A stretch of DNA of 37,092 bases from a virus. Lineage: Duplodnaviria > Caudoviricetes. Below the pieces are notes generated by a model. That model was not told where the DNA came from. It saw only the letters and a list, made by a program, of their open reading frames with translations, and did no database searches. Position 1 is the stretch's first letter, and the number at the start of each line of letters is the position of its first letter. Shown here piece after piece: positions 27,588 to 31,486 of the stretch. A program made the position numbers and the translations under genes. Location of the stretch: IMG/VR virus record IMGVR_UViG_3300008120_000330, positions 1 to 37,092 of that record; one strand, 5' to 3'.

Positions 27588-28481
27588 TTACTTGGTGCTG
27601 ATGAACTTGCTGTACTTACTACCCGAGCAGAAACAGTTGCCGACCTGCTTCTCGCAGAACAAGCAATAGCCACACTCGTAGCAGAACTCCTGCTCCCTGA
27701 TGCGGTTGACATCTGAACCGAGGTTCACATCGCAGGTGGGGCAGTAGAAGTAGCGGTCGAGGTCGTCGTGCTCGTTACCTGTCTCAATCCAACCACGGAA
27801 CTCGTCCCACTCGAACACGGTGCCATCTTCTTCGTCGACCCACACATCGGGGTTGTAGTCGAAGTCGTCGGCAGGCGTAACGCCGGTGGTGTTGGTGACA
27901 TGCGAGGTGTACTTGTACGACTGGGCGTACCACTGGTACTTGTACGAGTTGTTGCTGTACCACACGCCGTGGTCCCAATGACCGTCGCCCTCGTTGACGA
28001 GATAGACAGGCTTGGCCAACTGCTTACTCACAGAGATGATGGCCAACTTGCTACCGGCCGCGAACTTCTCCAACTCTGCGAAGTTCTCGGGGTCGTCGAG
28101 CACATTGGCAACACCGAGTTCGGGCAACCATTCCTCTGCGAACTGGCGAGTGTCTGACTTGCCATTCTCTTCCTTGATGGGAAGCATGCCGTTGTGTGCG
28201 AGGACGATGCCCTCGTCGACGACAAAGGGGTGGCAGTTGTCGATACTCGTAGCACCGTGAGTGGTGATACGCAGATGGAAGATGGCGTGCGCCTTGGGGT
28301 ACTCGGCTCGCATCTCGTGGAACAGGTCGATGGTACTGTCGAGGTCCATCGAACGGTGGTGGAACAGTTGGTCCTTGATGGCGAGGGCAAAGCCGAAGCC
28401 ATCAGGATTGTTGGCACCAGCGGTACGCAGATTCTTCTTGCTCGGCGTAGCACCAGGCTTGGCATAGATGAGTAGACACAT
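27588..28481 (-). CDS. Class II (Ntn) glutamine amidotransferase with C-terminal Cys-rich domain
   Basis: Cys at position 2; NPDGFG, HLRITTHG, NCHPF, AHNG and SDT motifs. Confidence 0.9.
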   Translation of the reverse strand: MCLLIYAKPGATPSKKNLRTAGANNPDGFGFALAIKDQLFHHRSMDLDSTIDLFHEMRAEYPKAHAIFHLRITTHGATSIDNCHPFVVDEGIVLAHNGMLPIKEENGKSDTRQFAEEWLPELGVANVLDDPENFAELEKFAAGSKLAIISVSKQLAKPVYLVNEGDGHWDHGVWYSNNSYKYQWYAQSYKYTSHVTNTTGVTPADDFDYNPDVWVDEEDGTVFEWDEFRGWIETGNEHDDLDRYFYCPTCDVNLGSDVNRIREQEFCYECGYCLFCEKQVGNCFCSGSKYSKFISTK

Positions 28482-28510
28482 GTGTAGTTCTCCTTTGTGA
28501 TGTGATGAAG

Positions 28511-28526
28511 TGATAGGAACCTATCA
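28511..28526. repeat. 16-bp palindrome TGATAGGAACCTATCA (copy 1 of 4)
   Basis: Overlaps the amidoligase stop codon; upstream of the GATase SD. Confidence 0.9.
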
Positions 28527-29735
28527 GGCCACGCCTCGATGAGACATGAGCGGGTGAAGGTCAGGATAGGTGGCGATGTTGTCGCTAGCCCACGCACTGA
28601 ACTGCGTCCAGTCAAGCGCACGCTTCGACACTGCGTCGTTGGCCCTGATGTCACGGGTGTACTGCCACAACGCATGGCTGTACTGAATGATGCCCTTGAC
28701 AGTTGCGGGACGCAGGCTCGAGCGGAAGTAACGCAACTCGACGGTGTTGGCAGGCTGAATGTTCACCGCAACATAGCGGTCGTAGTTCGTCTGCTGACCC
28801 TTGGCCATTGCCACACGGTTATCGCCGTTCATGCGTCCGAACTTGGCATACGACGAGCGACGACCAGCGAATCGCTGAATCGCCTCGTAGTTGCGGTCGT
28901 GGAAAGTCATGAACTTGTACAGGTGTGAGCCAGATGAGAACGAGTTCTTGCTGATGTGAACATGGATACCGGTGTCGGTACGACTCCACGCACTCATGCC
29001 GTACTCGCTGAGTCGACGCAACTTCTCGAACGGGAACATCTCCAAGTGGACACGATAGTCCGCAGGGTGAGTCACGATTTCGAAGCCGTTGATGGAGCCG
29101 TCCTCTTTGAGAATGATGTAGTCATTCTCGATACCGTCGAGGAAGAACTCGGCCGCATCGTTGAGGTTGTCCTCGTCGTCGATGTTGGTCTCGACCTCGA
29201 TGCCGATGTACGGCATGTTGCGCACACGATGACGAGCGATGCCGTTCACCGTCCACGAACGGAAGGTGAGGTTGTCGACCGTGTGATGGTACGACTGAAT
29301 CAGATGAGAGCGATGCGACTGCGGATAACACTCTCCGTTGTCGCAGTAATACTCATCGGTCCTGTCGGAGTACAACAGGCTGTTGGTCGCCTGTCTGTAA
29401 TCGCAGTTGCCACACCGCGAAACATACTCGTCCATACACACACGACATGCGAGGTCGGACTCGTAGTCGTTGATGAGATTCGTCCACGACTCGGGGAAGT
29501 AGTCACCGCACAGTGAGCACGACTCCCCGCTGTCTTCGTGGAACCAGAGGTGAACACATCGTGAGACAACTGACTGTCCGCTGTCCACGATGTAACTAAT
29601 CTCACGGTGCCGCAAGAGGTGATGTGGAACCTCGATGCTCATCGCATCGTCACGAGGAATGTTCTCTCGTGTCTCGAAGCAGAGCACCATCTCTGGTGCC
29701 TCCTCCTCCGGTACAAAGTCTTCTGATGCTGTCAT
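28524..29735 (-). CDS. Putative amidoligase (COOH-NH2 ligase, Amidoligase_2-like) with N-terminal Cys-rich region
   Basis: IGIEVET, EDGSINGFEIVTHP, TGIHVHIS, RYVAVN and TVELRYF motifs; AAAGGA SD before the ATG at 29735. Confidence 0.88.
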   Translation of the reverse strand: MTASEDFVPEEEAPEMVLCFETRENIPRDDAMSIEVPHHLLRHREISYIVDSGQSVVSRCVHLWFHEDSGESCSLCGDYFPESWTNLINDYESDLACRVCMDEYVSRCGNCDYRQATNSLLYSDRTDEYYCDNGECYPQSHRSHLIQSYHHTVDNLTFRSWTVNGIARHRVRNMPYIGIEVETNIDDEDNLNDAAEFFLDGIENDYIILKEDGSINGFEIVTHPADYRVHLEMFPFEKLRRLSEYGMSAWSRTDTGIHVHISKNSFSSGSHLYKFMTFHDRNYEAIQRFAGRRSSYAKFGRMNGDNRVAMAKGQQTNYDRYVAVNIQPANTVELRYFRSSLRPATVKGIIQYSHALWQYTRDIRANDAVSKRALDWTQFSAWASDNIATYPDLHPLMSHRGVA

Positions 29736-29783: not shown

Positions 29784-29799
29784 TGATAGGAACCTATCA
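29784..29799. repeat. 16-bp palindrome (copy 2 of 4), capping a long leader hairpin
   Basis: Identical sequence, within the 115-nt intergenic region upstream of the amidoligase gene. Confidence 0.9.
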
Positions 29800-29850
29800 C
29801 TGATGTGCTCTCTGCGTGGGGCGAGACTCATCTCGCCACACGACAGGGTA

Positions 29851-30434: not shown

Positions 30435-30557
30435 TCAGTTGTTCTCCTTGTTGTTGTGATTACGGACACGACAGACCACGCACTCGTCGTGGTCGGGAGT
30501 GTGCTCGAAAGCCCACTCGGTGATGAGAGGCACGCTCTCATTTGTGTCGTTGTTCAT
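30435..30557 (-). CDS. 40-aa small protein downstream of hammerhead 1
   Basis: GAAAGGG SD; MNNDTNESVPLITEWAFEHTPDHDECVVCRVRNHNNKENN. Confidence 0.6.
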   Translation of the reverse strand: MNNDTNESVPLITEWAFEHTPDHDECVVCRVRNHNNKENN

Positions 30558-30572
30558 GTGATTTCCCTTTCG

Positions 30573-30635
30573 GTACACCTGTCTCATCAGACACGGGCGG
30601 TGAACTCCGTGTGACGCACCGAAGTGCGTTTCGAC
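30573..30635 (-). ncRNA. Type II hammerhead ribozyme 1 (core 30581-30635 plus pseudoknot tail)
   Basis: - strand: GTC GAAAC GCAC-TTCG-GTGC GTC^ACACGG-AGTTCACCGC-CCGTGT CTGATGA GAC AGGTGTAC. Full catalytic core; predicted cleavage between 30613 and 30612. Confidence 0.93.
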
Positions 30636-30739
30636 TAACGCTTCATGTCCTGCGAAATTGACCACGACACACCGTTTGCGAAACCGCATTGGCAGGTGTA
30701 CAGCCAGCAGAGCGTTGTGATGTATTGACGGAAATCCAT
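30635..30739 (-). CDS. 34-aa small ORF between the two hammerheads
   Basis: GAAAGGA SD; MDFRQYITTLCWLYTCQCGFANGVSWSISQDMKR; its TAG overlaps the first base of hammerhead 1. Below the ORF-track cutoff. Confidence 0.6.
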   Translation of the reverse strand: MDFRQYITTLCWLYTCQCGFANGVSWSISQDMKR

Positions 30740-30752
30740 GTGATGTCCTTTC

Positions 30753-30814
30753 GTTGCGCCTGTCTCATCAGGTGCGGTAGGCGAACTCCGCACGACGCCT
30801 CACGGCGTTTCGAC
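30753..30814 (-). ncRNA. Type II hammerhead ribozyme 2 (core 30762-30814 plus pseudoknot tail)
   Basis: - strand: GTC GAAAC GCC-GTGA-GGC GTC^GTGCGG-AGTTCGCCTA-CCGCAC CTGATGA GAC AGGCGCAAC. Predicted cleavage between 30794 and 30793. Confidence 0.93.
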
Positions 30815-30817
30815 TCG

Positions 30818-30833
30818 TGATAGGAACCTATCA
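30818..30833. repeat. 16-bp palindrome (copy 3 of 4)
   Basis: Overlaps the stop of 30831-31238; 3 nt upstream of hammerhead 2. Confidence 0.9.
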
Positions 30834-31238
30834 CTTGTAGCCCATGGCACGCAGGACGATGTCCTGCTTGGCAGGGGCGAACTTCTTGTTCATCATGAAG
30901 ATGCGGACGAGGTCGATTTCGTCCTTGCTGAACTTGATGACCTGCTTCTTGCTCGGAGTCGCGTACGACTTCTTGGTCTCACGGGCGTGTTCGAGCGACT
31001 TGAACTCGTCGCAAGTGTGGCCCTGCTTGATGAGGAACATCAACTCCATCACATACTGGCGAATGGTGTTCATCTTCCAGTCCTGGCTGACCTTTGCCGA
31101 TGCGACAGCGTAGGGCTGAGCCTTGCCATCGAACTTGCTCAGGCATTCCTCAGCCGCACTCCACCAACCGGCGAGAGCGGCCTTATTGCCACGACGAATC
31201 GCACTCTCGTGCGTGGCGAAGTTTGTCTTGCTGTTCAT
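30831..31238 (-). CDS. First early gene, hypothetical (MNSKTNF...)
   Basis: AAGGAGG SD; phage-typical codon usage; basic protein. Confidence 0.75.
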   Translation of the reverse strand: MNSKTNFATHESAIRRGNKAALAGWWSAAEECLSKFDGKAQPYAVASAKVSQDWKMNTIRQYVMELMFLIKQGHTCDEFKSLEHARETKKSYATPSKKQVIKFSKDEIDLVRIFMMNKKFAPAKQDIVLRAMGYK

Positions 31239-31253
31239 TTCATTTCCTCCTTG

Positions 31254-31269
31254 TGATAGGAACCTATCA
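31254..31269. repeat. 16-bp palindrome (copy 4 of 4; here GTGATAGG-AA-CCTATCAC)
   Basis: Directly abuts the SD of the first early gene. Confidence 0.9.
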
Positions 31270-31486
31270 CGGTTGTGGTTGTGGTTGTTCGGATACGAGC
31301 GACCAACCGCAACGGGTCGAACCATTCAGCCCGCTGTGCGCTGTTCTCCTACCCTTGCTTCGCACGGTGTAAGTGCGGATACGGAACGCCCCTGGTCAGG
31401 GTGCTATTCGACCCCAATACGACGACAAGGGGGGCGCATGGGGGCCCACCGCCAGCCCACTAGACGGAGTCCCTCCGCGCAGAGCC

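What the first reader, a model, noticed from the sequence alone, without database searches (positions are those of the whole stretch)
30555..30790. Covarying ribozyme pseudoknot placed directly against the ribosome-binding site
Seen: loop I GUUCACC can pair with the 3' tail GGUGUAC in ribozyme 1, and loop I GUUCGCCU with AGGCGCAAC in ribozyme 2 (compensatory A-U to G-C change). In both, the tail is followed at once by GAAAGG-N2-3-ATCAC-ATG. Inference: a repeated 'ribozyme + RBS' expression cassette giving each small ORF a 5'-OH, hairpin-protected end, like a natural RiboJ insulator. Ribosome loading and cleavage may be coupled.
Basis: partly seen in the sequence, partly recalled or inferred. 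Interest (0 to 1): 0.75.

Follow-up and report, generated by a model that had tools for sequence, protein, structure and literature searches.

The report
Phage hammerheads heading swappable early genes
Two small genes of an uncultured phage each sit just behind a hammerhead motif (a known self-cutting RNA fold with its known pseudoknot) that likely chops the message into hairpin-capped pieces; this is a common, already described phage layout, and nothing here shows that cutting and ribosome loading are linked.

Summary
Two type II hammerheads lie on the minus strand (30814-30762, 30635-30581; Rfam RF02276 hits the second). Their loop I/3'-tail pseudoknot covaries (A-U to G-C), and a Shine-Dalgarno plus ATG follows each.

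It is not new. Perreault 2011 described this pseudoknot, did the disrupt-and-rescue test, and reported hammerheads flanking single prophage genes. This scan noted similar layouts before (137 findings, at least 114 genomes). The layout is general: 112 of 138 phage homologs have an SD-led start within 45 nt, and 87 of 136 abut the upstream stop codon.

Coupling to ribosome loading is unsupported. The conserved pseudoknot ends 4 nt before the SD, the spacing varies among homologs, and predicted RBS access does not rise after cutting here.

One extra: nine relatives carry a single ribozyme equal to the first one's 5' half plus the second one's 3' half. The window therefore holds a 181-bp gene cassette whose borders fall in the 5 bp that end at the cut site. 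The gene behind the ribozyme varies among relatives.

Best reading: constitutive processing of an early operon, with the ribozyme-RBS unit doubling as a gene-swap socket. New member of a known kind.

The parts
30762..30814 (-).
30753..30761 (-). HHa 3' tail; AGGCG pairs with loop I CGCCU (pseudoknot core); the AAC extension is weakly supported
30746..30752 (-). Shine-Dalgarno GAAAGGA of the 34-aa ORF
30635..30739 (-). 34-aa ORF of unknown function; the G of its TAG stop is the first base of HHb stem II
   Evidence: no PHROG match
30581..30635 (-).
   Evidence: Rfam RF02276 37.3 bits
30573..30580 (-). HHb 3' tail; GGUG pairs with loop I CACC (pseudoknot core)
30566..30571 (-). Shine-Dalgarno GAAAGG of the 40-aa ORF
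30435..30557 (-). 40-aa ORF of unknown function, identical in relative L151, where it follows a single ribozyme
30618..30798 (-). 181-bp segment (HHa 3' half + SD + 34-aa ORF + HHb 5' half) absent from relatives; its borders lie in the shared 5 bp that end at the cut site
30817..30834 (.). Palindrome GTGATAG-N4-CTATCAC overlapping the ORF1 stop, 2 nt before HHa; three more copies at 31254, 29784 and 28511
30831..31238 (-). ORF1, 135 aa, first gene of the small-gene block; predicted all-helical, no family assigned

Best explanation
Two type II hammerhead motifs, each with a loop I/3'-tail pseudoknot, sit directly before the ribosome-binding sites of two small phage genes and likely cut the phage's early message, without regulation, into short separately translated pieces. 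Steps: (1) The block from ORF1 leftwards is transcribed as one message (inferred from gene order; no promoter was found). (2) Each motif folds, and the pseudoknot holds stems I and II in the fast-cutting geometry (shown for other type II hammerheads in PMC3088659; here supported by covariation only). (3) The cut at GUC leaves the two products joined by only the 3-bp stem II, so they would part (inferred). (4) The upstream piece would end in the stem III hairpin plus a cyclic phosphate. The downstream piece would start with a 5'-OH inside the stem I hairpin and pseudoknot, followed by an unpaired SD (follows from anatomy and known chemistry). (5) This would give each gene a standard leader and a half-life independent of its neighbours (inferred; the direction of the effect depends on the host's RNases). 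As a by-product, the conserved ribozyme-RBS sequence serves as a shared homology block behind which small genes are exchanged. Relatives show different genes there and lack the 181-bp segment (shown); DNA recombination as the route is inferred.
For: Complete hammerhead cores and covarying stems. Pseudoknot covariation across homologs. The motif fills the intergenic gap: SD-led start within 45 nt in 112 of 138 (controls 3 of 138 and 18 of 132), and upstream stop within -1 to +4 nt in 87 of 136 (frame-shifted controls 11 and 11 of 136). The close relative L137 keeps the fold through a compensatory stem I change. PMC3088659 (sections 6 and 11 read whole, section 7 in passages): tandem hammerheads flank single prophage genes, cleave in vitro and in E. 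coli, and a halovirus transcript 5' end maps near a hammerhead 13 nt before a start codon. PMC6206723 (passages): RiboJ raises transcript about twofold and protein two- to tenfold in E. coli. Different genes of 40, 59, 60, 64 and 71 aa lie behind the same ribozyme in relatives.
Against: No cleavage or transcript data exist for this phage; the runs laid were contigs, and three of them are probably DNA. The host is unknown (no hit in genome contigs, or in cultured phages). In B. subtilis the 5'-OH product of the glmS ribozyme is degraded by RNase J1 (PMC11780869, passage), so protection is not guaranteed. Most genes of this block have no ribozyme, and nine relatives have only one in their short loci, so strict one-gene-per-piece processing is not needed. 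In 31 of 117 homologs the RBS is predicted to open by more than 2 kcal/mol after the cut, against 3 in the other direction, so some members may be cleavage-activated. In the pseudoknot-blind folds of the post-cut pieces the structure is no more stable than shuffles (z -0.2 and -0.4), and the HHb piece has an alternative fold that pairs loop I with the start codon region.
Confidence: 0.6

Rival explanations
1. Translation of the upstream gene gates cleavage: a ribosome ending at a stop codon that overlaps stem II covers the 5' half of the ribozyme, so the message would be cut mainly when the upstream gene is not being translated.
For: The TAG of the 34-aa ORF supplies the first base of HHb stem II. 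In 87 of 136 homologs the stop lies within -1 to +4 nt (controls 11 of 136).
Against: HHa and its orthologs in this family sit 16 nt or more past the stop, behind a palindrome. Tight packing of phage genes explains the abutment without regulation. A terminating ribosome is only briefly present (own knowledge).
Confidence: 0.13
2. The cut starts decay rather than protecting, as with glmS: the ribozymes limit or time the early genes by handing a 5'-OH end to RNase J.
For: glmS precedent (PMC6765202, PMC11780869; passages). The same cassette type occurs in genomes of Bacillota and Actinomycetota, groups that as a rule have RNase J (own knowledge).
Against: The 3' product starts with a paired base in a 6-bp stem plus pseudoknot, with no single-stranded overhang. 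A strong SD follows at a consistent distance (median 24 nt to the start).
Confidence: 0.12
3. One reading: a 30S subunit loading on the adjacent SD competes with the pseudoknot, or cleavage frees the SD, so that cutting and initiation control each other.
For: The pseudoknot core ends 17-18 nt before the AUG, near the recalled 5' edge of a ribosome footprint, and the weak extension reaches the SD. 31 of 117 homologs gain more than 2 kcal/mol of predicted access after the cut.
Against: The SD is outside the helix in 35 of 37 homologs and the spacing is not fixed (-6 to 25 nt). There is no predicted gain in this window. The whole pseudoknot lies in the 3' product, and PMC3088659 reports that it forms without the other strand, so the cut need not change it. 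The extension pairs are not conserved.
Confidence: 0.08
4. The main selected role is at the genome level: ribozyme repeats are handles for gaining and losing small genes, possibly through RNA (the piece released by two cuts can close into a complete hammerhead and could be ligated into another ribozyme's cut site).
For: The 181-bp segment missing from nine relatives and from a contig of run X1 is exactly the cut-to-cut piece within 5 bp. Its 3'-half sequence matches another phage group over 40 nt exactly (L139, L143, L150).
Against: It is one event. A crossover in those 5 bp is also one of the few that keep all stems intact, so selection after ordinary recombination explains it. In 34 discordant homolog pairs, stem I was shared in 31 and the breakpoints mostly lay in the tail/SD or upstream. 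No reverse transcriptase appeared among the 34 ORFs scanned with Pfam. PMC3088659 detected no spliced or circular products.
Confidence: 0.07

Closest known systems
Type II hammerhead ribozymes with loop I/3'-tail pseudoknot, clustered around single genes in prophages (Perreault et al. 2011, PMC3088659; Rfam RF02276)
   Same: Same permutation, same core, short stem II, same pseudoknot, tandem copies flanking a single small gene, and the same proposed role in processing polycistronic phage RNA.
   Different: In the parts read, the paper does not quantify SD or stop-codon adjacency ('Shine' occurs 0 times in the main text; one halovirus case 13 nt before a start). It reports no cassette indel at the cut site.
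RiboJ insulator (synthetic; PMC6206723)
   Same: A self-cleaving hammerhead upstream of an RBS removes upstream sequence and leaves a hairpin-bearing standard 5' end.
   Different: RiboJ is an sTRSV-derived ribozyme plus an added 23-nt hairpin placed behind a promoter. Here the natural type II stem I and pseudoknot would form the cap, inside an operon. The effect on expression was measured for RiboJ and is untested here.
glmS ribozyme
   Same: Self-cleavage ahead of a bacterial gene yields a 5'-OH mRNA.
   Different: glmS needs a metabolite cofactor and its product is degraded by RNase J1. A hammerhead needs no cofactor, and its product here begins with a hairpin.
[quoted passage not shown]
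   Same: A viral hammerhead sits just ahead of a start codon.
   Different: Type I motifs in eukaryotic RNA viruses; no Shine-Dalgarno.

Membership tests
Type II hammerhead (RF02276) | Core CUGANGA + GAAA + NUH cut triplet around three stems | tested here: met
   CUGAUGA, GAAA and GUC are present in both
Type II hammerhead (RF02276) | Stems I and III closed by loops, stem II open | tested here: met
   Stem I 6 bp, stem III 4-5 bp, stem II 3 bp
Type II hammerhead (RF02276) | Reaches the Rfam gathering score | tested here: inconclusive
   HHb 37.3 against 37 (met); HHa not reported at E up to 5, though it has the same anatomy
Type II hammerhead (RF02276) | Pseudoknot of 4 or more bp between loop I and the tail after stem II | tested here: met
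   4 and 5 bp with a compensatory change; family covariation
Type II hammerhead (RF02276) | Self-cleavage at the predicted site | not testable with these tools
   Only contig data were available
Clustered phage/prophage hammerheads | Several copies flank single genes in a phage operon | tested here: met
   Two copies 181 bp apart flank a 34-aa ORF; terminase, portal and major head protein matches mark a phage
RiboJ-type insulator (works-like only) | Cleavage leaves a hairpin 5' end upstream of the RBS | tested here: met
   Predicted stem I hairpins start at the first base of the 3' product
RiboJ-type insulator (works-like only) | Expression becomes independent of upstream context | not testable with these tools
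   Needs reporters
RBS-occluding translational switch | SD paired inside the ribozyme or pseudoknot and freed by the cut | tested here: not met
   SD 4 nt outside the core; no predicted gain in access; the folding model ignores pseudoknots

The most novel reading that the evidence does not exclude
The cut-to-cut RNA piece is itself the mobile unit. Two cleavages release a small gene with half a hammerhead at each end; it can close into a circle or be ligated into the cut site of another phage's ribozyme, and is then fixed in DNA. This would be an integron-like gene-capture system whose recombination site is a ribozyme. The window would be a snapshot of one such 181-nt gain.
Probability: 0.07. 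Interest if true: 0.85.

Novelty: new member of a known kind. Interest (0 to 1): 0.3.

Why it matters
The job of the many phage hammerheads is still open (PMC6765202, passages: 'largely elusive'). This locus adds no new RNA class. It does give counts showing that these ribozymes fill the gap from stop codon to RBS, and a natural matched pair (with and without the 181-bp cassette, same downstream gene) that would suit a test of processing versus gene shuffling. The phage and its host are uncultured, which limits direct testing to reporters.

Tried and rejected
Leaderless translation from the 5'-terminal GUG of the HHa product, which is in frame with the 34-aa ORF: the frame is not kept in L133; rejected. 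ATCAC as part of the cassette: it also precedes a ribozyme-free gene in L137; rejected. Cut-site exchange as a general rule: not seen in 34 discordant pairs. The first, looser start caller picked early ATGs in about 6 cases and gave false SD overlaps; recounted, but the opening energies were not recomputed. Expression: 8 runs listed, 5 laid (X1-X5), all contigs. The one true RNA run covers only 31143-31301 at depth 2, so it says nothing on cleavage. The X1 joined contig could be read as a spliced RNA, but the same form is in DNA metagenome contigs and X1 is probably DNA. Host: no match in genome contigs for the family pattern or in cultured phages. A sigma-70 promoter scan gave chance level (2 found, 1.8 expected). 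The source of the 34-aa ORF was not found (no PHROG match). ORF1 as the palindrome-binding regulator: no Foldseek match at E 0.001, best VIA Z 5.1, with ParB/KorB/Mos1 DNA-binding domains at Z 4.1-4.4 among unrelated helical hits; Atlas best score 0.77; inconclusive. Literature searches for SD or stop adjacency and for cassette exchange found nothing beyond Perreault 2011 and reviews; subscription papers and supplements were not seen.

Full report
Setting. The window is the whole 37,092-bp contig of a tailed phage. Terminase, portal, major head protein and an SU10-type adaptor lie on the plus strand; helicase, primase, RusA, a glutamine amidotransferase and an amidoligase-like gene lie on the minus strand (34 and 13 ORFs scanned). 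The finding lies at the head of the minus-strand block of small genes, which I take to be the early region (inference from position and gene size). The host is unknown.

The observation. Rfam finds one Hammerhead_II at 30636-30573 (37.3 bits). A type II descriptor scan of both strands finds it and a second copy at 30814-30762, and nothing else. The copies are 181 bp apart and 77% alike over 52 nt. Each has GUC-GAAA, stem III, a GUC cut triplet, a 6-bp stem I with a 10-nt loop, CUGAUGA and GAC. A core pattern that does not specify loop or tail returned 129 loci from 7 of 64 parts of IMG/VR, about 1200 stretches in all. From these and the window I parsed 143 ribozymes, 138 after removing 5 duplicates. 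A pseudoknot of 4 or more Watson-Crick pairs is possible in 91 of 138, against 24.9 +/- 4.2 (maximum 36) in 200 tail swaps. Many of the rest have 3-5-nt loops (41 of 138 have a 17-nt hairpin I). In the 44 distinct members with a 22-nt hairpin, positions 1-4 pair in 157 of 176 cells (61 and 56 off register), and position 3 shows G-C 16, C-G 12 and A-U 12. These controls do not remove relatedness.

The cassette. An SD-led ORF of 25 or more codons starts within 45 nt of stem II in 112 of 138 (median 24 nt); controls gave 3 of 138 on the opposite strand and 18 of 132 at +100 nt. An SD-led upstream ORF ends within -1 to +4 nt of the ribozyme in 87 of 136 (2 dropped for short flanks), against 11 and 11 in frame-shifted controls and 0-5 at shifted positions. 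HHb is such a case; HHa is 16 nt past its stop. In bacterial genomes a stricter pattern gave 19 loci and 20 ribozymes in Bacillota, Bacteroidota, Actinomycetota and Desulfovibrionaceae records, 15 of 20 with an SD and start by the looser caller.

Coupling. The conserved pseudoknot ends 4 nt before the SD and 17-18 nt before the AUG here. Across 37 homologs the gap to the SD runs from -6 to 25 nt (median 6, overlap in 2) and the gap to the start from 4 to 37 nt. The predicted energy to open the RBS goes from 5.7 to 6.9 (HHa) and from 5.4 to 6.0 kcal/mol (HHb) on cutting. Over 117 homologs the median change is 0.5, under 1 in 59, but more than 2 in the activating direction in 31 and in the other direction in 3 (no pseudoknots in the model, some starts miscalled). 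A subset elsewhere may therefore be cleavage-activated, but this locus gives no sign of it. The SD-ATCAC string also stands before a ribozyme-free gene in the relative L137.

Relatives. L133/L137 (amidoligase-like protein 70% identical) has one hammerhead core in 9.2 kb, orthologous to HHa, with a compensatory stem I change and a GUU triplet. A family pattern gave 14 metagenome loci. One is a copy of this genome. Nine (L140-L142, L144-L148, L151) carry a single ribozyme made of HHa's 5' half and HHb's 3' half, exact over 40 + 8 nt in all nine and 40 + 16 nt in eight (loci of 1.1-2.4 kb, several closely related). Three (L139, L143, L150) match HHa's 3' half over 40 nt in a different gene context, and one is more distant. 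L151 has the identical 40-aa gene behind the single ribozyme, and a 157-nt contig of run X1 shows the same joined form (its last six letters look like a library adapter, recalled). By parsimony the window gained 30618-30798, with both junctions inside a shared 5 bp that ends at the scissile bond; loss in the ancestor of the nine is not excluded. The gene behind the ribozyme is 40, 59, 60, 64 or 71 aa in different relatives. In 34 non-independent pairs that share only the upstream flank or only the downstream gene, stem I was shared in 31, and most switches lay in the tail/SD or upstream. The ribozyme is thus a homology block for gene exchange, but the cut site is not the general breakpoint.

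Mechanism. Shown: anatomy, covariation, position and cassette variation. From established chemistry: a cut gives a 5'-OH and a 2',3'-cyclic phosphate (PMC6765202, passages). In the type II permutation the upstream product keeps stem III at its 3' end (-5.8 and -6.4 kcal/mol) and the downstream product starts in stem I (-9.4 and -8.1), joined by only 3 bp. Inferred: constitutive processing into hairpin-capped pieces with independent half-lives (0.6).

Comparison with print. PMC3088659 (abstract, sections 6 and 11 whole, section 7 in passages; supplements not opened) describes the type II pseudoknot and its disruption and compensatory rescue. It reports tandem hammerheads flanking single prophage genes with cleavage in vitro and in E. 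coli, no detected spliced or circular products, and a halovirus hammerhead 13 nt before a start codon. PMC6765202 (passages) lists processing of polycistronic RNA into pieces of different stability or translation as suggested but unproven. PMC6206723 (passages) defines RiboJ. PMC11780869 (passages) notes RNase J1 decay of the glmS product. PMC13725137 and PMC5737381 were seen in passages only. Searches found no paper that counts SD or stop adjacency or reports cassette indels at the cut; the library lacks most subscription papers, and unopened supplements may hold such data. Earlier notes of this scan report the same layout widely (137 findings, at least 114 genomes) and reassorted ribozyme halves in another phage; these are unchecked AI notes, not evidence.

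Verdict. A real pair of type II hammerheads with the known pseudoknot in a known context. New member of a known kind, interest 0.3; the cut-to-cut 181-bp cassette is the one feature worth following.

Noticed in passing
window 31254-31269, 30818-30833, 29784-29799, 28511-28526; L137, L148, L151; L140-L147: Palindrome TGATAG-N4-CTATCA in four copies, at the same four positions in L137 with a variable centre. Other relatives carry TGTACC-N4-GGTACA at the same kind of positions, with the centre in either orientation in L145, and the palindrome type goes with the type of ORF1 protein that it flanks. This suggests an operator and an autoregulatory ORF1; the fold search was inconclusive. The copy at 30818 lies just before HHa.
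   Followed up: partly
window 30618-30798: The segment between the two cut sites is absent from nine relatives and from a contig of run X1. Its ends together form a complete hammerhead, so the released 181-nt RNA could in principle circularise.
   Followed up: yes
window 29808-29847: A 40-nt stretch with the hairpin GGCGAGA-TGAG-TCTCGCC between the 73-aa ORF and the third palindrome is 95% conserved in L140-L142, L145 and L147, and keeps its arms in L137 and L151; no Rfam match.
   Followed up: no
window 32742/32743: Near-identical contigs L131, L132, L134 and L135 have 109 extra bases here, inside the small-terminase-like gene; the window may carry a deletion or an assembly gap.
   Followed up: partly
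loci, e.g. L002, L004, L010, L026: About a third of the type II hammerheads have a 3-nt loop I, a G-C extension of stem II and no pseudoknot, yet still precede an SD and start: a second structural subclass of the same cassette.
   Followed up: no
window 27588-29735 (-): An amidoligase-like gene followed by a class II glutamine amidotransferase gene, separated by the fourth palindrome.
   Followed up: no
L137:2496-3020: The ORF1 homolog has no ATG/GTG at the expected start behind its AGGAG; it may use a rare start codon or carry a sequence error.
   Followed up: no
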